Source: a phage
Sequence record: MZ956763.1
DNA: 64,000 nt
Strand: one strand, 5' to 3'
Positions 13,676 through 56,653 of this stretch are shown one piece after another. The notes beneath the pieces were generated by a model. The model was given only the letters and a program-made list of their open reading frames with translations, had not been told where the DNA came from and searched no databases. Position 1 is the stretch's first letter; every line of letters starts with the position of its first letter. The translations under genes and the position numbers were made by a program.

Positions 13676-13882
13676 ATGCTATACGGTCGTGAATTGATGG
13701 TTACAACTAACGTTAACACAAATGTAAAACGTTTTTACATGCAAATTTGTGGCGTATGGTCTAGAATATCAGAGGCTGACTATTGCAACTATGTAGAAAC
13801 GGCAATCAACTCTGATTGCTACCTTACAAGGAATACAAGAAAGCACATAAGACAGACAGCAGTTTACTACTACGATATCTAA
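13676..13882 (+). CDS. hypothetical protein (early)
   Basis: ORF 68 aa behind conserved RBS cassette. Confidence 0.4.
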   Translation: MLYGRELMVTTNVNTNVKRFYMQICGVWSRISEADYCNYVETAINSDCYLTRNTRKHIRQTAVYYYDI

Positions 13883-13884
13883 TA

Positions 13885-13970
13885 AAGTACTTTACAAGGG
13901 GCTTAAAAGTTGATATCTTAAGCCCCAGATAAAGAGCTTTATCAACAACCTTAAACTAGGAGATTCAAAA
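13885..13970 (+). repeat. reiterated intergenic module (hairpin GGGGCTTA..TAAGCCCC + CCTTAAACTAGGAGATTCAAAAATG)
   Basis: near-identical copies at 14352, 14700, 15767, 16562. Confidence 0.8.
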
Positions 13971-14441: not shown

Positions 14442-14699
14442 ATGGCTATTATCAAAAACGTTGTAGTTCCTGCAAAAACTCGTGATGACGCTCGCGTTAT
14501 GGCTAAAAAGTTATGTGGGAGAGTGGTTGACAACGGGAAACAATCTGCTGTAAGATGGGGTGTAAAGGTTGATAAACATTTAACCTTAAAACGTAGTTCA
14601 AACAACCTTTTTAAAGGTGTAAAATCACTCGGTAAAGTGAACGTTTTTACCAAAAAAGGTTATAAAATGCACTTATCATTAACTGGCAATTTAATCTGA
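14442..14699 (+). CDS. hypothetical protein (early)
   Basis: ORF 85 aa. Confidence 0.45.
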   Translation: MAIIKNVVVPAKTRDDARVMAKKLCGRVVDNGKQSAVRWGVKVDKHLTLKRSSNNLFKGVKSLGKVNVFTKKGYKMHLSLTGNLI

Positions 14700-14787
14700 T
14701 AAAGTACTTTACAAGGGGCTTAAAAGTTGATATCTTAAGCCCCAGATAAAGAGCTTTACCACTAAATCCTAAACTGGAGATTCAAAA
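14700..14787 (+). repeat. reiterated intergenic module (hairpin + RBS)
   Basis: same module as 13885. Confidence 0.8.
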
Positions 14788-19003: not shown

Positions 19004-19065
19004 ACTAATCAACGGGAGGGATGACCTCCNTACTAAATAAAACCNTTAAACTAGGAGATTCAAAA

Positions 19066-19314
19066 ATGGCAACTATCCGCGCAACCGTTAACNAATTNNG
19101 CTTCTACTCTCTGGATGTTAAATTTGACCTTGTGGGCACTGATAACGCCTTTGAAATGGTGAAAGGTCTTATCAGTCAGACCATCAAAGACTATAATCCT
19201 TCTGATGAGTTCTGGAAAGAAACAAAACAGGAAGTTCTTAAAGATGGTTATTCTTTTCACTATTGGGGTGAAAAAATTGTCTCTCTGTACTACGATAAAG
19301 AAGGCACTAACTAA
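19066..19314 (+). CDS. hypothetical protein (early; contains ambiguous bases)
   Basis: start at ATG after conserved RBS (MATIRATV..). Confidence 0.4.
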   Translation: MATIRATVNXXXFYSLDVKFDLVGTDNAFEMVKGLISQTIKDYNPSDEFWKETKQEVLKDGYSFHYWGEKIVSLYYDKEGTN

Positions 19315-19352
19315 ACGCCGCAGCGGGGCTAAATAGCCCCAGATACCTTTAC

Positions 19353-19377
19353 AGCCCCTCTGAATAGGGGCTTTTTT
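19353..19377 (+). terminator. intrinsic terminator (second of two tandem hairpins)
   Basis: GGGGCTAAATAGCCCC then AGCCCCTCTGAATAGGGGCT + TTTTTT. Confidence 0.7.
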
Positions 19378-19379
19378 AC

Positions 19380-21010
19380 GTCTTATACAATCCTTATACA
19401 AACCCTTTCCCTTTCCTTCCTAGAATCTTACTAGACCTTAAAAGCAATAACTCTATAGTCTACTCTATAGCCTTTTATCAAATCAACTTAAATATAAGCC
19501 CATAACCCGAAAGGGAAGGGCAACCATTTAAACGCTCTATAAAGCCCTATAACAACCTTATTAACCCAACTTAAGGGATTGCATTATCTCACCCTTAAAA
19601 GCCCTTTATAAAGCTTCCTAGAGCCTTAAAAGAATCTTATAAGGGTGTAAGCTTTATTATCTCGTTAGCTATCTTGTGAATAACTAAAAAGGGCTATGAG
19701 ATAGATTCTATCGAATCCTATTGTTAGTGTCTTAAAAGTATGTTATAGGGGCTATGAAGTAGCTTAAAAGTTGCTTAAAAGTTACGTAAAAGAGGTTATA
19801 AAGTTACGTAAATGCTAGCCCCCTTAACATTTTCTTAACAATTTCTTAACAATCCCTACATAGTTATGCTTTTAAGGCACTTGTTAGCAACTTGTTAGCC
19901 CCTTGTTAAATCTCTGTTAAGACCACGTAAAAGCCTTGTAAGAGTCTTTGACATAGCCTTAAAAGCTCCTGTAAAGCCCTATAAAGAGCTATCCATACAG
20001 TTGAGGGGTAGATACTAGGAAGAGACTTAAAAGGGCTTATAAGGGGCTATAGAGAGCTTTTAAGAGATATGTTTAGAGATTCACTAAGAGGAAAGGGAAT
20101 GATAAGAAAAGAGATAGTGACCATGTTAATAGCTTGTTAAAAAGATTAAACACTTGTTAGGAACTTGTTAATTATCTTTACAAAATAACCCTTAAAAATT
20201 AACTTGTTAGCTCTTGTTAGTCATCTGTTAAGATTCTGTAAAGCCTATTCAGTACTTGTTAGAAAACTGTTACAACCTTGTTAGTTCTGTTAAGAATATG
20301 TTAAGACCTCTGAAGAGATGTTAAAGAGATGTAGCAACTGTTAAGAGATTGTTAATGATATTTTAAAATTTTGCAAAGGGGGTGTTAAGGGGCTGTTAAG
20401 GGCTACCAAGCAGATATACATCCTAATCAGATATTTTTGAGTTCCTTCAAAGACCCTAAAAAATGACTTGATAGTCCTATTTTATAAAAATTTTAAAATT
20501 CTGAATAATTACCTATACAGTCTTCTAAAAATACAGGCATAAACAGGCTTATAAGATACCTTGTTAGTACCGTGTTAGACCTTGTGAGATAAGGTCTGTA
20601 AAGATATTCCTGTTAAGTTTGCTAAAACAGTCTATATAGAGGCTTAGTAATACCTAGTGAACATCTATAGAGGGTATCATAGGTAACCTAGAGATTAAGA
20701 GGTGTATAGGAGCTTCTAAGAGGGTATAGAGAGGTGGTTAAGGTGATTGTATAGGTTGTTAAGAAGGCTTGTTAGGAGAGTGTTTAGAAGGCTTGTTAGA
20801 GGGCTAGTTAGAAGGGTTATACAGAGGGGCTATTAAGACCACTAGATAGTTACTAAGATACTATATAGTACTATATAACTATATAGAGAGTAAGATTAAG
20901 AAGGTTGTTAAGAAGGATAGATATTTTATTCACATATGATGGTGACCCAGAGGTTGGGACAACCGATAAAATTTTATAAAAATTAAAAAGCCCCCAATTA
21001 AGGAGGCTCT
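19380..21010. repeat. 1.6 kb ORF-free region densely packed with short reiterated motifs (YTGTTAR, CTTAAAAG, CTTATAAG, TATAG)
   Basis: no ORF >60 aa; about 30 copies of CTTGTTAG/CTGTTAAG-like words, many CTTAAAAG/TATAAAG words; lies between convergent gene blocks. Confidence 0.8.
20985..21009 (-). terminator. probable intrinsic terminator for leftward block
   Basis: minus-strand hairpin (AGCCTCC/GGGGGCT) followed by T-run. Confidence 0.45.
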
Positions 21011-21019
21011 TAAGATATT

Positions 21020-21613
21020 TTAAATCAGTGTTTCCAGAACTGTTTTTAATGATGACTTGGTTGTCTGATAAAAATGAGTAAATCCATTGTTGTTATCAAA
21101 TACCTGCATCATGATATCATCTCCCTTGATTGGGTACACTCGGATATCATAGTGGAAACCGTTAAAGACACAAGAACCACTACAGAATGCTCTAAAATCA
21201 TCCACTGAGATATACTCTTCATGACCTGTGATTTTTATACAAACACCTTTACTCGGCCTCTTAGGGTTGATATCTTCCATCACAGACATATTCTGCCCAC
21301 CAAGAGATACCATAGTGACCACTTTACGGTTCTTCTGTTTAAAGTACATTTTAACTTTCTGTAAAGTGTCTTCATAGAACGGATAAGACTTCTCTACAAA
21401 GATTCCTTCTAATGGCTCTTTACCGTTTACAATACCTCTGGTATGACGTACTGAGAAGATAAGTTGCTCTAGTATGTCAAGGCTTTCTTCGGAGAGTGCT
21501 TCCCGAATATCATTCCAGTCAAGTACTAGGTAGTTACCTTCAACTTCTTTTAAGTTATCTTTTTCCATATCTATCACGCCATTATCGTAAAACTTGGTAA
21601 GCTGGAACTGCAA
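21020..21613 (-). CDS. hypothetical protein
   Basis: ORF 197 aa. Confidence 0.5.
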   Translation of the reverse strand: MQFQLTKFYDNGVIDMEKDNLKEVEGNYLVLDWNDIREALSEESLDILEQLIFSVRHTRGIVNGKEPLEGIFVEKSYPFYEDTLQKVKMYFKQKNRKVVTMVSLGGQNMSVMEDINPKRPSKGVCIKITGHEEYISVDDFRAFCSGSCVFNGFHYDIRVYPIKGDDIMMQVFDNNNGFTHFYQTTKSSLKTVLETLI

Positions 21614-22046
21614 ACTTGTTGCCGTTGTTCTTAATGAGGTCTTCTTCTGTTACTAAGAATGTAATCCCACACAAGTGTGTGTAGTGGCTATCATACTCAA
21701 ATATTTTAAGTAAGTATTTACCATCGTGATAAACAGACTCTACTACACCTTTTGCAACAATCTTTCCAGTCTTGAAATCTTTAAGAGGGTATGTATTACC
21801 GACTCTAGGGACTGTTTTCATCTCAGGCTCTTTTAGCTTATCACCAGCTTCTACATCACCTAGCAAGTGAGAACTTTCAAACGCTACATATTGCATATAG
21901 GCTTCTGAGCATTCCCAGATAAAGCAATGTACAAGAACCTTAGCAGCATGTCTTGAACAATTCAACTTATCACAAATCTCTTTGTACATTTCATCTTTAA
22001 TTGAGTTGTCAAGCATTGCTTTTTGGACTACTTCTTTAATTTTCAT
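21582..22046 (-). CDS. hypothetical protein
   Basis: ORF 154 aa. Confidence 0.5.
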   Translation of the reverse strand: MKIKEVVQKAMLDNSIKDEMYKEICDKLNCSRHAAKVLVHCFIWECSEAYMQYVAFESSHLLGDVEAGDKLKEPEMKTVPRVGNTYPLKDFKTGKIVAKGVVESVYHDGKYLLKIFEYDSHYTHLCGITFLVTEEDLIKNNGNKFAVPAYQVLR

Positions 22047-22098
22047 TTCGCTACCTTCTAAGTTTCTACAAAGGGGCTATCAAGTAACCCCTAAGCTA

Positions 22099-22323
22099 TT
22101 ACTCAGACTTTTCAGTCTTCTTATCGGATTTCTTACTAGTCTTCTTCTCAGCTTTCTGCTCAGGTTCCTTCTCAGAAGTTGCCTTGATAACCATATCAAG
22201 AAGCTCTGATAAGTCACTCTTCAGCAAAGTAACAGGCTGCTCGTTGTAGAAGTTTTTGTCAAGATAAACTTTAAACTCTTCTATAGAAGGAAATCCAAAA
22301 ATTGGTACAGGTGTCTTAATCAT
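22099..22323 (-). CDS. hypothetical protein (Lys/Glu-rich C-terminus)
   Basis: ORF 74 aa. Confidence 0.4.
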   Translation of the reverse strand: MIKTPVPIFGFPSIEEFKVYLDKNFYNEQPVTLLKSDLSELLDMVIKATSEKEPEQKAEKKTSKKSDKKTEKSE

Positions 22324-28333: not shown

Positions 28334-28725
28334 AGATAATCCTCTTGTCTTCTGTAATTTTGAAAGAACAGGTACAGACCAATTTCAGAGGATGAATAGT
28401 AGATTAACTCTACCCTTTTTGATTCCTTACAGTGATTGGTATTCTTACCTTTCTTCGGTTTATTTGATTTTCTCATTAAGTCTCCTTTGTAGAACAAGGC
28501 AGACCTACAGCTTTAAGTAAGATGGTACAGTAATCCATACAACAAGTCAAGAACTATTGCAAGTTAAAAAAGTTGTTGACAAAGTACTTGACAAGGTGTA
28601 GGCTTATAAATACTTAGAAGATAACTTAAAAGGTTCCTCTAAAAAGGCTATTTAAACAGATATCTTTCTGGATATCTATCTTTTATCTTAAAAGCCTTTT
28701 AAGAGGTCTTATAAGAGGCACACCA

Positions 28726-29097
28726 ATGAAAAACAGAACAAACAAAGGCCAGTTTAAAAAAGGCCAGTCTGGAAACCCATCTGGAAGACCCAAAGGCTCT
28801 CGTAACAAAAGTTCACTCGTAAAAGCTCAACTGACCATTGATAATTCTGCTGAGTTTGCTGCAAAGTTGTTTGAGGCGATTGTTACAAGGGACGCTGCTA
28901 AGCTTGCAGAGTTCGGGTTAAACACAGATGACGTAACCATCAAGAGTATGATTGAGGTCGGTAAAACTATCTTTACTCACTCAGCAGGTGAGATGAAAGC
29001 ACTTGCAGCAGACACTAAGAAGACTCCTGATAATGGTGGTCAACAACAGACAGATAACAAACCAACGTTCTCTGCTGTAGCGACTCTCAAAAAATAA
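28726..29097 (+). CDS. hypothetical protein with N-terminal GNPSGRPKG basic motif
   Basis: ORF 123 aa. Confidence 0.5.
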   Translation: MKNRTNKGQFKKGQSGNPSGRPKGSRNKSSLVKAQLTIDNSAEFAAKLFEAIVTRDAAKLAEFGLNTDDVTIKSMIEVGKTIFTHSAGEMKALAADTKKTPDNGGQQQTDNKPTFSAVATLKK

Positions 29098-35995: not shown

Positions 35996-36196
35996 ATGAG
36001 CGAGACCGTTTATAAAGAACTTTATGAAGCTAATAAAAAGCTAGAATTTATGCAGAATACTATCATGGCAATTGCAGACAGATTGTCTGTAGCAACAGGT
36101 ATTGATATTAAAGAAGCATCTATGGATGCACTTCTTGATGCTGTTGATGCAAAGTTCGAAGTTAAGAAAGAAGAGACTGCGACAGACTCTGAATAA
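35996..36196 (+). CDS. hypothetical small protein
   Basis: ORF 66 aa upstream of terminase. Confidence 0.4.
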   Translation: MSETVYKELYEANKKLEFMQNTIMAIADRLSVATGIDIKEASMDALLDAVDAKFEVKKEETATDSE

Positions 36197-36217
36197 TTCT
36201 ATTTGCGGAGGCGCTTA

Positions 36218-37819
36218 ATGGACTTAAATGCTGTTAAGCAGAAGCGAGTGGAAGATGTTAGGAAAGTCCTAGCTGGAGAGTTGGGGCTTTCTGATGAAGT
36301 AAAAGAAATTATCAAATCATTCGGTAAAGACCCCTCTAAATTCCTTCCAACTCAAATTCTGACTTTATTAAGATACACACCAGACCAAGTTCGCCTTATC
36401 TTTAAATTGATGACTGATAAGAACTATGTAGCCCCTCAGCCGGGTTCTCAAGAGGTCTTTTTAAACACTAATGCTGACTTGGTTCTCTATGGTGGTGCTG
36501 CTGGTGCTGGTAAGACTGCTGCATTGTTAATGGACTCTTTAAGATTTATTGAAGACCCTAACTATAATGCTGTGTATTTCCGTCGAAATACAACACAGCT
36601 ACAAGGTGGTTTATGGCCTGCTGCAAAGAAACTATTTGGTAAGTTTGGTGGGGTCCCTCACGAGCAGAAAATGACTATCACATTCCCTTCTGGGGCAACT
36701 ATCAAGTTTACCTACCTAGAACTTGAAAAGCACGCTGAAGGTCATCAGGGTATTGAATACTCAGCTATTTACTTTGACGAAGGTACACACTTCTCCGCTT
36801 CACAGATTTCATACCTACAAACACGTCTACGTTCTGGTGCTGAAGGTGATTCATACATGAAAATTTCCATGAACCCAGACAGAGACCACTTTATTTACGA
36901 TTGGGTAGAACCATTCTTAGATGAAGAAGGTTACCCAGACCCTGAAAAGTGTGGTCGTATTCGTTGGTATGTAATGAATGATGGTGTGATGGTTTCTGAT
37001 TGGGAGAGAGACAAGATTCTTGAAATGTTCCCTCTTGAGATTCCTCAAACATATACATTCATCTCTGGTACGATTGATGATAACCCAATTCTTGACTTCT
37101 TAGAACCAAAGTATCGCGGTAAGTTGGAAAACAACACTCCTGTAAACGTTGCAAGACTTCGTTTCGGTAACTGGAAGGCTCGTGCAGAAGGTTCAAACTA
37201 TTGGCAAAGACAATGGTGTGAAATTGTTGATTCACTCCCAGAAGATGTATTCGATGTCAGAGCATGGGACTTAGCAGCAACTTTACCATCTGAGGTTAAC
37301 CCTAATCCAGACTGGACAGCGGGTGTTAAGATGGGTAAATCTAAAAAAGACGGTTGCTATTATATCATTGATGTAGTAAGATTTAGAGATAGACCCTCTG
37401 GAGTCGAAACACAAATTAATTTGACTGCTGAAAGTGACGGTAAGCGAACTGGTATTTTTATCCCTCAAGACCCAGGCGCTGCTGGTAAATCCTACGCAAC
37501 ATCCCTCATCAGGAAACTTGCCGAGAAAGGCTATCGTGCAAGAGCTAAACCAACAAATAAAGATAAAGTTACCCGATTTGCGGGGTTTTCTGCTGCTTCT
37601 GAAGCTGGACTTGTAAAAGTTTTGAGAGGTAGTTGGAACGAAGCTTATTTCCAAGAGCTTGAAGGCTTTTGTGGTGATGGCAAAACTAAAGATGACCAAG
37701 TGGATGCTACCAGTGATGCTTTCAACAGTCTTAACGAAGTTAAATTATTCAAGCCACCATCAATGGGTGCTCACACAGACTTAGTGAGAGGAAACCCATA
37801 TGAGGGGCTTAGACGTTGA
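36218..37819 (+). CDS. terminase large subunit
   Basis: Walker A LYGGAAGAGKTAAL; size ~530 aa; followed by portal-sized gene. Confidence 0.8.
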   Translation: MDLNAVKQKRVEDVRKVLAGELGLSDEVKEIIKSFGKDPSKFLPTQILTLLRYTPDQVRLIFKLMTDKNYVAPQPGSQEVFLNTNADLVLYGGAAGAGKTAALLMDSLRFIEDPNYNAVYFRRNTTQLQGGLWPAAKKLFGKFGGVPHEQKMTITFPSGATIKFTYLELEKHAEGHQGIEYSAIYFDEGTHFSASQISYLQTRLRSGAEGDSYMKISMNPDRDHFIYDWVEPFLDEEGYPDPEKCGRIRWYVMNDGVMVSDWERDKILEMFPLEIPQTYTFISGTIDDNPILDFLEPKYRGKLENNTPVNVARLRFGNWKARAEGSNYWQRQWCEIVDSLPEDVFDVRAWDLAATLPSEVNPNPDWTAGVKMGKSKKDGCYYIIDVVRFRDRPSGVETQINLTAESDGKRTGIFIPQDPGAAGKSYATSLIRKLAEKGYRARAKPTNKDKVTRFAGFSAASEAGLVKVLRGSWNEAYFQELEGFCGDGKTKDDQVDATSDAFNSLNEVKLFKPPSMGAHTDLVRGNPYEGLRR

Positions 37820-56632: not shown

Positions 56633-56653
56633 AGGGGCTATAAAGCCCCTTTT
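56633..56653 (+). terminator. intrinsic terminator
   Basis: AGGGGCT-ATAA-AGCCCCT + TTTT. Confidence 0.55.

What the first reader, a model, noticed from the sequence alone, without database searches (positions are those of the whole stretch)
19380..21010. 1.6 kb coding-free region built from short reiterated words between convergent gene blocks
No ORF above 60 aa on either strand. The sequence is a mosaic of recurring words: about 30 copies of (C/T)TGTTA(G/A) (often as CTTGTTAG or CTGTTAAG), many CTTAAAAG, CTTATAAG and TATAAAG/TATAG words, and local tandem duplications (for example TACTATATAGTACTATATAACTATATAG near 20860). Such large iteron-like tracts in phages usually mark a replication origin, a packaging/terminal-repeat region, or an array of binding sites for a DNA-binding protein. 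A fused genome-end junction is also possible.
Basis: seen in the sequence. Interest (0 to 1): 0.7.

Follow-up and report, generated by a model that had tools for sequence, protein, structure and literature searches.

The report
Phage genome ends with repeat-word array
The 1.6-kb gene-free tract is where the two physical ends of a Felix O1-like phage genome were joined by the assembler: one collapsed copy of a ~590-bp direct terminal repeat, surrounded by about 60 short words spaced one DNA helical turn apart. This is an ordinary kind of feature (a packaging and end-processing region), though an unusually large one.

Summary
Window 19402-21019 has no ORF of 40 aa or more and lies between convergent terminators. 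It is packed with oriented words: CTTGTTAG occurs 10 times against 0.07 expected, and the general form CTNNNNAG 63 times against 5. Periodicity is about 11 bp (z 12.8).

The window is a Felixounavirus (Felix O1-like myophage). Four independent GenBank relatives carry 100%-identical direct terminal repeats of 581-651 bp. All start GCCCCCTTAACA (window 19818) and end TGTTAAGGGCTACC (window 20407). One of them (Pr103Blw) has its repeat annotated, and its paper reports it from PhageTerm.

The tract is therefore a concatemer-type junction: right-end unique DNA, one repeat copy, then left-end unique DNA.

The tract is better conserved than its flanking genes across four genera. In the most distant one, Erwinia phage phiEa21-4, only the two repeat edges still align.

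T7 and SP6 ends carry analogous oriented word arrays.

What the words do is inferred: probably a binding platform for the packaging and end-cutting machinery. One candidate binder is a DUF5681 protein (28726-29097) that sits in the small-terminase position in other phages.

Novelty is modest: a new, large member of a known kind.

The parts
19353..19372 (+). Intrinsic terminator closing the rightward gene block, just before the right genome end
   Evidence: Annotated as a terminator in the relatives ASO1A and Mordin.
19380..19817 (+). Right-end unique non-coding DNA. Array of CTTAAAAG, CTCTATAG, CTTCCTAG and CTATAAAG words with C-rich spacers.
   Evidence: Lies outside the repeat in the four records that carry terminal repeats. 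The sub-stretch 19680-19770 varies by gain or loss of roughly 11-nt units.
19798..19851 (.). Left-edge block of the terminal repeat. The physical left end lies at 19817|19818 (GCTA|GCCCCCTTAACA).
   Evidence: Nearly invariant in 23 Felixounavirus sequences and conserved in SUSP1, Mordin and SFPB. One of only two substantial blocks still alignable to Erwinia phage phiEa21-4 (E 8e-5).
19818..20407 (+). Direct terminal repeat, present once here. In the virion it would be at both ends.
   Evidence: Exact repeats of 581, 591, 651 and 613 bp at both ends of Pr103Blw, ZX4221, NBEco005 and SeKF_63 map to these coordinates. Annotated as a repeat_region in MW481326. Present once in the window.
19823..19853 (-). 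Three CTTAACA words at 11-bp spacing. These are the only reverse-oriented TGTTAAG words in the tract, and they start 5 nt inside the left end.
   Evidence: Copy number is 2-5 among relatives.
20124..20400 (+). Dense array of 17 TGTTA(A/G) words in the right part of the repeat. It ends with GTGTTAAGGGGCTGTTAAGGGCTACC at the right end.
   Evidence: Inverted-repeat pairs I6, I14 and I23/I24 link it to the left edge.
20356..20420 (.). Right-edge block of the terminal repeat (ATTTTAAAATTTTGCAAAGG...GGGCTACC|AAGCAGATATACA). The physical right end lies at 20407|20408.
   Evidence: GGGCTACCAAGCAGATATACA is invariant in all 23 Felixounavirus sequences and in SUSP1, Mordin and SFPB. Best-conserved block against phiEa21-4 (E 2e-11).
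20408..20545 (.). Word-poor, AT-rich core (24% GC) immediately inside the left-end repeat copy. Function unknown; candidates are a packaging site, an unwinding element or a promoter.
   Evidence: 97-99% column identity among 23 Felixounavirus sequences. Composition.
20545..20985 (+). Left-end unique non-coding DNA. Array of CTTGTTAG, CTATATAG and GGTATAGAG words with G-rich spacers.
   Evidence: Mean conservation of 0.93 over 20408-20985, equal to or above the adjacent coding sequence.
20986..21011 (-). Intrinsic terminator closing the leftward gene block
   Evidence: Annotated as a terminator in ASO1A and Mordin.
28613..28715 (+). Cluster of six CTNNNNAG words between a sigma-70-like promoter and the DUF5681 gene. 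The link to the end tract is tentative.
   Evidence: A similar three-word cluster lies upstream of the homologous gene gp42 in phiEa21-4.
28726..29097 (+). 123-aa DUF5681 protein: a candidate small terminase or word-binding protein (inferred)
   Evidence: Pfam PF18932, 54 bits. Distant homologues lie immediately upstream of, and overlapping, large-terminase genes (PMC8954984). Invariant GNPxGRPxGSxN motif. The model shows a disordered N-terminal arm followed by a helical hairpin.
36203..37819 (+). Large terminase, the enzyme expected to cut at the repeat edges
   Evidence: phrog_979, E 8e-234.

Best explanation
The tract is the junction of the two physical ends of a Felix O1-like (Felixounavirus) genome, as it exists in a replicative concatemer or in a circularised assembly.

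**Anatomy (shown).**
- 19380-19817 is the non-coding tail of the right end.
- 19818-20407 is a single copy of the ~590-bp direct terminal repeat.
- 20408-20985 is the non-coding head of the left end.

**Mechanism (inferred by analogy with T7-type phages).** The terminase recognises this junction and nicks opposite strands at the two conserved repeat edges. Strand-displacement synthesis then duplicates the repeat, so each packaged genome carries it at both ends.

**Role of the words (inferred).** The roughly 60 CTNNNNAG-type words fill the repeat and both flanks. They have AT-rich cores and sit one helical turn apart, so all lie on one face of the DNA. They most likely form a cooperative binding platform for the packaging and end-processing proteins. 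One candidate binder is the DUF5681 protein at 28726-29097, which carries an AT-hook-like arm.
For: **Identity of the ends**
- Megablast places the tract in 257 Felix O1-like phage records.
- Pr103Blw, ZX4221, NBEco005 and SeKF_63 each carry a 100%-identical repeat at both record ends. All start at window-equivalent 19818 and end at 20407.
- Pr103Blw's repeat is annotated, and its paper reports it from PhageTerm as a 581-bp direct terminal repeat.
- In the sample of records listed, those whose ends fall inside this tract mostly break within the repeat. Contig ends there show fold-back or duplication artefacts.

**Constraint**
- The tract is 73-77% identical and 96-99% alignable to SUSP1, Mordin and SFPB. 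The flanking genes are only 37-78% alignable, and the neighbouring protein is 47-57% identical.
- The tract stays at 35% GC across these genera. SUSP1's genus is about 47% GC overall, judging from its genus-mate mistaenkt.
- Against phiEa21-4, only the two repeat edges align at length.

**Array architecture**
- The 11-bp periodicity is found in all five genomes examined, from four genera.
- Indels are mostly multiples of about 11 nt.
- The only three reversed words sit at the left edge, mirroring the right edge.

**Analogy.** T7 has 13 oriented CCTAAAG words in and beside its 160-bp repeat. SP6 has 12 oriented CTTAGT words.

**Candidate binder.**
Against: - No reads or virion DNA are available for this isolate. 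The termini are transferred from relatives that are 87-92% identical across the aligned tract.
- The two edges are not perfectly symmetric. The shared GCCC(CC)TTAACA motif is offset by 4 nt relative to the two ends.
- No experiment links the words to any protein.
- The AT-hook resemblance is not statistically significant (E 0.22).
- The DUF5681 model has only moderate confidence and matches no solved small terminase.
- The same words occur, more sparsely, elsewhere in the genome, so they are not exclusive to packaging.
- The function of the analogous T7 arrays is, to my knowledge, unproven.
Confidence: 0.8

Rival explanations
1. The tract is, or also contains, the phage replication origin. The phased words would act as iterons for an initiator, and the 24-25% GC stretches as unwinding elements.
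For: - Iteron-like phased direct repeats.
- Two very AT-rich 100-nt stretches, at 20120-20220 and 20420-20520.
- Two one-mismatch DnaA-box-like sites, at 19675(-) and 20926(+), against 0.27 expected for TTWTNCACA.
- From my own knowledge, T7 has secondary origins next to its left-end repeat array.
Against: - No initiator-like gene flanks the tract. All eight neighbouring proteins have unknown function in PHROGs, and the seven of them scanned against Pfam gave no significant match.
- There is no ordered DnaA-box series of the kind reported for T5.
- The cumulative GC-skew turn here coincides with the switch in transcription direction, so it is uninformative.
- The deepest conservation is at the two repeat edges, not at the AT-rich stretches.
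Confidence: 0.2
2. The word array is mainly structural. It would be intrinsically curved, or a wrapping track for a host nucleoid protein or an end-protection or ejection-control factor. It would act when the ends enter the cell rather than in packaging.
For: - A helical-repeat period of 10-12 bp with AT-rich cores is the classic signature of curved DNA or one-face binding.
- Unrelated coliphages T7 and SP6 also carry oriented, AT-cored words at their ends. This could point to a shared host-side or physical cause.
- The T5 untranslated repeat region has been proposed to control DNA entry.
Against: - Curvature was not computed.
- No matches to the IHF or Fis consensus were found.
- The vocabulary differs between phage groups (CCTAAAG, CTTAGT, CTTGTTAG), and partly within Ounavirinae (CTTAAAAG against CTTCTAAG). 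That fits phage-encoded recognition better than one host factor.
Confidence: 0.15
3. The words are non-functional by-products of slippage and unequal recombination at recombinogenic genome ends. Only the two cut sites would matter.
For: Copy number of 11-nt units varies between close relatives, and repeat length ranges from 581 to 651 bp.
Against: - The tract is better conserved than the flanking genes across genera.
- Word orientation bias is extreme (28 forward, 3 reverse) and is conserved.
- Tract length (1.4-1.7 kb), GC content and period are maintained across four genera.
- Indels preserve helical phase.
Confidence: 0.05
4. The tract hides small genes or a non-coding RNA.
For: Some depositors annotate small 'hypothetical proteins' inside it. 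Sigma-70-like matches are mildly enriched (14 against 7.9 +/- 2.9).
Against: - No ORF of 40 aa or more.
- No codon periodicity, in contrast to control coding sequences.
- No Rfam match with an E-value below 0.25.
- The promoter-like hits are made from the words themselves (TTAACA).
Confidence: 0.05

Closest known systems
Bacteriophage T7 concatemer junction (160-bp terminal repeat with flanking short-repeat arrays)
   Same: - A short direct terminal repeat with fixed ends.
- One-orientation short words (13 CCTAAAG plus CATAAAG and CTTAAAG) lie inside the repeat and on both sides of it, spaced 12-13 bp apart.
- The words have a similar flavour (...TAAAG). T7 even contains CTTAAAAG and CTTGTTGTTAG.
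- The expected maturation route is staggered cuts at the repeat edges followed by repeat duplication (established T7 model, from my own knowledge).
   Different: - The repeat is about four times longer, and the array about five times larger (roughly 60 words over 1.6 kb).
- The period is 11 bp rather than 12-13 bp.
- The edges carry mirrored word triplets.
- Genes on both sides point towards the ends and are closed by terminators, so there are no early promoters or genes at the entering end as in T7.
- The virus is an unrelated myovirus with an unrelated terminase.
Salmonella phage SP6 left end
   Same: Twelve oriented CTTAGT(G) words with none reversed and a period of about 12 bp. They lie near the left end of the genome; SP6's terminal repeat is about 174 bp from my own memory and was not checked here.
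   Different: Different word, a much smaller array, 49% GC, and a podovirus.
Phage T5 untranslated repeat region / injection stop signal in the 10-kb terminal repeat
   Same: A conserved gene-free region of 1-2 kb at the inner edge of a terminal repeat, full of repeats and inverted repeats.
   Different: - T5 has a different repeat vocabulary (for example TGTGCAAATCCGAC).
- It shows no CTNNNNAG excess (4 against 6.4 expected) and no clear 11-bp period.
- It has an ordered DnaA-box series and a nick site.
- Its role is tied to two-step DNA transfer, which is not known for Felix O1.
Plasmid partition centromeres made of phased 10-11-bp repeats (for example R1 parC bound by ParR)
   Same: Arrays of short direct repeats at helical spacing that nucleate a cooperative protein filament on one DNA face (from my own knowledge).
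   Different: No partition genes were detected nearby. The virus is lytic and linear. The array is about ten times longer, and it coincides with mapped genome ends.

Membership tests
Direct-terminal-repeat (DTR) genome ends of a fixed-end packaging phage | The same sequence is present, in the same orientation, at both ends of the linear virion genome | tested here: met
   Four relatives carry 100%-identical repeats of 581-651 bp at both record ends, all mapping to window 19818-20407. One (Pr103Blw) is annotated, and its paper reports the repeat from PhageTerm. This was shown for relatives, not for this isolate.
Direct-terminal-repeat (DTR) genome ends of a fixed-end packaging phage | Ends are fixed (not permuted) and lie at conserved positions | tested here: met
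   Four records deposited independently share identical first and last bases. The edge blocks are invariant or nearly so across three genera and alignable in a fourth.
Direct-terminal-repeat (DTR) genome ends of a fixed-end packaging phage | Two-fold read coverage over the repeat and pile-ups of read starts at both edges | not testable with these tools
   No sequencing reads are available for the window's source.
T7-type concatemer junction with short-repeat arrays | Oriented short words inside and flanking the terminal repeat, at about one-helical-turn spacing | tested here: met
   Window. T7. SP6.
T7-type concatemer junction with short-repeat arrays | The junction sequence is necessary and sufficient in cis for packaging by the phage terminase | not testable with these tools
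   Needs a plasmid-transduction or in vitro packaging assay.
Iteron-type replication origin | Iterons next to a gene for their initiator, plus an AT-rich unwinding element and host-factor boxes | tested here: inconclusive
   AT-rich stretches are present. Two near-consensus DnaA boxes were found. No recognisable initiator is nearby.
T5-type injection stop signal | An ordered series of DnaA boxes and large palindromes inside a long terminal repeat | tested here: not met
   Only two scattered DnaA-like sites. The repeat is 0.6 kb rather than 10 kb. The T5 repeat vocabulary is absent.
Small terminase (for the DUF5681 protein at 28726-29097) | Gene immediately upstream of the large terminase gene | tested here: inconclusive
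   This holds for the distant homologues P0053 and P0046 and for STGO-35-1. In this window, however, the gene lies 7 kb upstream of the large terminase, separated from it by the tRNA cluster.
Small terminase (for the DUF5681 protein at 28726-29097) | Fold: a DNA-binding N-terminus plus a helical oligomerisation core resembling solved small terminases | tested here: not met
   The model shows a disordered basic arm and a helical hairpin (pLDDT 69). Foldseek found no PDB match, and a profile search of PDB sequences found none either.
AT-hook DNA-binding motif (for the same protein) | A GRP core flanked by basic residues that matches the AT-hook profile significantly | tested here: inconclusive
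   GRP is invariant in 33 homologues. PsGRPKGSrNks aligns to HMGA PRGRPKGSKNK, but only at E 0.22. There was no Pfam AT_hook hit.

The most novel reading that the evidence does not exclude
Across the four Ounavirinae genera examined, the ~145-turn array of helically phased, AT-cored words may be the loading track for a previously unrecognised class of small terminase. These would be DUF5681 proteins, which lack a helix-turn-helix and instead reach into successive minor grooves with an invariant AT-hook-like GNPxGRPxGS arm. DNA would wrap around an oligomer, positioning the large terminase at two mirrored cut sites 590 bp apart. The same protein would regulate its own gene through the word cluster in its leader. 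This would supply the small terminase that Whichard et al. (2010) could not find in Felix O1.
Probability: 0.2. Interest if true: 0.6.

Novelty: new member of a known kind. Interest (0 to 1): 0.35.

Why it matters
**Practical.**
- Most of the ~250 deposited Felix O1-like genomes are opened arbitrarily, usually at rIIA, with the terminal repeat collapsed and this tract left unannotated.
- Knowing that 19818 and 20407 are the ends allows correct genome orientation and length.
- It also matters for engineering these phages, which are used in Salmonella and E. coli diagnostics and biocontrol. Inserts must not disrupt the junction.

**Biological.**
- The tract is a large, conserved example of the short-word arrays that accompany terminal repeats in T7 and SP6.
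- To my knowledge the function of those arrays is still unproven.
- This tract offers clear edge motifs and a candidate binding protein to test.

Tried and rejected
- **First guess from memory.** I first suspected a T5-like injection-stop region. The BLAST identity (Felixounavirus) and the absence of the T5 repeat vocabulary or a DnaA-box series ruled that out.
- **RNA families.** Rfam gave nothing meaningful.
- **Flanking genes.** PHROGs, Pfam and NCBIfam found no replication, partition or DNA-binding function in them.
- **Literature.**
  - The Felix O1 genome paper and the wV8 paper do not mention the tract.
  - The Bas63 gene-essentiality paper does not mention it either.
  - The Danish wastewater phage paper does not discuss the tract or Felixounavirus terminal repeats.
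  - A search for papers on the T7 CCTAAAG repeats returned only irrelevant hits.
- **DUF5681 protein.** Structure prediction and Foldseek did not link it to known small terminases.
- **Host-factor motifs.** IHF and Fis consensus scans were negative.
- **Not attempted.** I considered computing DNA curvature but did not. I could only have used wedge parameters recalled from memory, and the result would not have changed the verdict.
- **GC skew.** It is uninformative here because the skew turn coincides with the switch in transcription direction.

Full report

Yes. Between 19402 and 21019 there is no ORF of 40 aa or more on either strand. The tract is bounded by terminator-like hairpins that face each other, at 19353-19372(+) and 21011-20986(-).

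The words are hugely over-represented and strongly oriented:
- CTTGTTAG occurs 10 times with none reversed, against 0.07 expected from the rest of the window.
- CTTAAAAG occurs 8 times against 0.28, and CTGTTAAG 6 times against 0.12.
- TGTTA(A/G) occurs 28 times forward and 3 times reversed.

Most words fit one frame, CTNNNNAG. It occurs 63 times in 1606 nt, against 5.0 +/- 2.3 in shuffles.

Sequence autocorrelation peaks at lag 11 (z = 12.8), with harmonics at 21-22 and 31-33. There is no 3-nt codon signal (z = -2.0), whereas control coding sequences generally show positive lag-3, -6 or -9 signals and, with one exception, no lag-11 signal. The tract is thus roughly 145 helical turns of 8-bp words separated by 2-4-bp spacers.

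**2. What is it?**

Megablast places the tract in 257 Felix O1-like phage records. In 189 of them a single match covers at least 80% of the query, mostly at 80-93% identity. The window is a Felixounavirus, and its gene content fits: rIIA, nicotinamide phosphoribosyltransferase, 24 tRNA genes and a large terminase.

Nobody annotates the tract beyond 'repeat_region' or 'terminator'. The Felix O1 and wV8 genome papers do not mention it.

The decisive lead came from records that begin inside the tract. Pr103Blw, ZX4221, NBEco005 and SeKF_63 each carry a 100%-identical repeat at both record ends, of 581, 591, 651 and 613 bp. All four start GCCCCCTTAACATTTTC (window 19818) and end TGTTAAGGGCTACC (window 20407). 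Pr103Blw's repeat is annotated as a short direct terminal repeat, and its paper reports it from PhageTerm.

A fifth record, MET-P1-301, has a trimmed 544-bp version in the opposite orientation. In the sample of records listed, those whose ends fall inside this tract mostly break within the repeat. Humlepung and a metagenomic contig show fold-back or duplication artefacts right at the left edge. Both are typical behaviour of assemblers at real ends.

The window holds the repeat only once. The tract therefore has three parts:
- 19380-19817, right-end unique non-coding DNA.
- 19818-20407, one collapsed copy of the direct terminal repeat.
- 20408-20985, left-end unique non-coding DNA.

This is the form the sequence takes in a replicative concatemer.

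**3. Is it under constraint?**

Among 23 distinct Felixounavirus sequences, mean column identity to the window is as follows:

| Segment | Mean column identity |
|---|---|
| Right-end unique part | 0.82 |
| Terminal repeat | 0.90 |
| Left-end unique part | 0.93 |
| Coding flanks | 0.77 and 0.93 |

Other genera tell the same story:
- SUSP1 (Suspvirus) and Mordin and SFPB (Mooglevirus) have the same 1.6-1.7-kb gene-free gap.
- Their tracts are 96-99% alignable to the window and 73-77% identical.
- The flanking gene blocks are only 37-78% alignable, and the neighbouring 182-aa protein is 47-57% identical.

Word counts (58-61 CTNNNNAG), orientation bias, the 11-bp period and about 35% GC are all retained. 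SUSP1's genus is about 47% GC overall, judging from its genus-mate mistaenkt.

Erwinia phage phiEa21-4 (Kolesnikvirus) has a syntenic 1.2-1.4-kb gap with the same period (z = 8.8) and the TGTTAAG word. On its left side, however, the word is CTTCTAAG rather than CTTAAAAG.

In that deepest comparison, only two blocks align at length (54 and 128 nt), and they are the two repeat edges: window 20294-20420 (E 2e-11) and 19798-19851 (E 8e-5). The other hits are 17-27-nt matches of repeated words (E 0.001-0.003). This predicts a repeat of about 440 bp in phiEa21-4.

Indels inside the tract are mostly multiples of about 11 nt (11, 22, 33, 66, 99, 110), so helical phase is preserved when units are gained or lost.

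**4. Fine anatomy**

- **Mirrored edges.** The only three reversed words (CTTAACA three times, 11 bp apart, 19823-19853) begin 5 nt inside the left end. They mirror the TGTTAAG words that run up to the right end. Read from the outside in, both ends look alike: 5'-GCCCCCTTAACA on the left and 5'-GGTAGCCCTTAACA on the right, offset by 4 nt.
- **Spacer composition.** Spacers are C-rich over most of the left part and strongly G-rich in several stretches to the right, but GC skew fluctuates and there is no single switch point.
- **Word-poor core.** A 24%-GC stretch at 20408-20545, just inside the left-end repeat copy, is 97-99% identical among Felixounavirus sequences.

**5. How it most likely works**

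*Shown.* These are the genome ends and the terminal repeat. The two edges are the most conserved elements. The array is phased, oriented and conserved.

*Inferred from the established T7-type model (my own knowledge).* Concatemers carry one repeat per junction. The terminase nicks opposite strands at the two edges, and displacement synthesis duplicates the repeat. The mirrored edge motifs are what such two-fold-symmetric nicking would need.

*Inferred more weakly.* The words form a one-face binding platform for the packaging machinery.

Whichard et al. found no small terminase in Felix O1. The 123-aa protein at 28726-29097 is a candidate:
- It is a DUF5681 family member.
- Its distant homologues sit immediately upstream of, and overlapping, large-terminase genes in two metagenomic phage contigs. 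One also sits there in Salmonella phage STGO-35-1.
- Its invariant motif K-G-x-S-G-N-P-x-G-R-P-x-G-S-x-N resembles the HMGA AT-hook PRGRPKGSKNK. At E 0.22 this is a lead, not a test.
- The model has a disordered basic arm followed by a helical hairpin.
- It matches no solved structure.
- Its own leader carries six of the words in 110 nt, and the phiEa21-4 homologue's leader carries three.

**6. Comparison with what is known**

I checked T7 and SP6 directly. T7 has 13 oriented CCTAAAG words, plus CATAAAG and CTTAAAG, inside and beside its 160-bp repeat, with a 12-13-bp period. SP6 has 12 oriented CTTAGT words. The Felix O1-type junction is a much larger member of the same kind.

The T5 untranslated repeat region differs in vocabulary, lacks the period and has a DnaA-box series, so it is not the same thing.

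A replication origin is not excluded. AT-rich stretches and two near-consensus DnaA boxes are present. Nothing specifically supports it, and it could coexist with the end function.

**7. Verdict**

The identity of the tract is ordinary: the terminal repeat is already annotated in at least one relative. As far as I could find, the size, phasing and symmetry of the word array and the candidate small terminase are undescribed. Interest is moderate to low (0.35), and the finding is a new member of a known kind.

Noticed in passing
window 1-64000; also L050 (phiEa21-4, 1-50000): GATC is completely absent from the whole 64-kb window (0 sites against about 225 expected). It is also absent from 50 kb of Erwinia phage phiEa21-4. 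CCGG (16) and CGCG (11) are also rare in the window. The Felix O1 genome paper does not mention GATC.
   Followed up: partly
window 28726-29097 (+), with its leader at 28613-28715: A 123-aa DUF5681 protein with an invariant AT-hook-like GNPxGRPxGSxN motif. Its distant homologues occupy the small-terminase position next to large-terminase genes. Felix O1 was reported to lack a small terminase. Its leader carries six CTNNNNAG words downstream of a strong sigma-70-like promoter.
   Followed up: partly
window, outside 19300-21100: CTNNNNAG is about two-fold over-represented genome-wide: 579 sites in 62 kb, against roughly 300 expected from dinucleotide frequencies. CTTAAAAG recurs in several other intergenic spots, for example 9040, 18014 and 56638-56649.
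   Followed up: partly
window 13870-13940 and 14690-14760: Two copies of the long intergenic repeat noted by Whichard et al. Each is a hairpin, GGGGCTTAAAAG...CTTAAGCCCC, flanked by CTTTACA motifs. By eye it could read as a sigma-70-like promoter overlapping a stem-loop; no promoter scan was run on these coordinates.
   Followed up: no
just right of window 20421 (alignment): A 24-nt insertion (ATGAGGTAGATTCTACCGAATCAA or a near variant) lies about 14 nt beyond the right repeat edge. It is present in some Felixounavirus genomes (L016, L031, L033) and in the Mooglevirus SFPB, but absent from most. This presence/absence polymorphism is shared across genera.
   Followed up: no
L047 (humlepung, 1-70) and L029 (IMG/VR contig end): The assemblies end with an inverted copy of window 19903-19971 fused at 19835, or with stuttered duplicates of the left repeat edge. 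These look like assembly artefacts at a physical DNA end.
   Followed up: yes
window 22046-22180: A second local hot spot of CTNNNNAG (CTTCTCAG and CTGCTCAG at a 12-nt period). It falls largely within the 3' part of the small ORF 22099-22323(-), so the repetition may be coding rather than a binding array. The ORF was not translated to check.
   Followed up: no
window 19031-19099: Seven ambiguous bases (N) lie in the last gene before the tract, 19021-19314 (+). This suggests low-quality base calls in the source record.
   Followed up: no
window 35996-36196 (+): A conserved 66-aa ORF (phrog_4397, function unknown) ends 7 nt before the large-terminase start. It is an alternative candidate for a small packaging partner.
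   Followed up: partly
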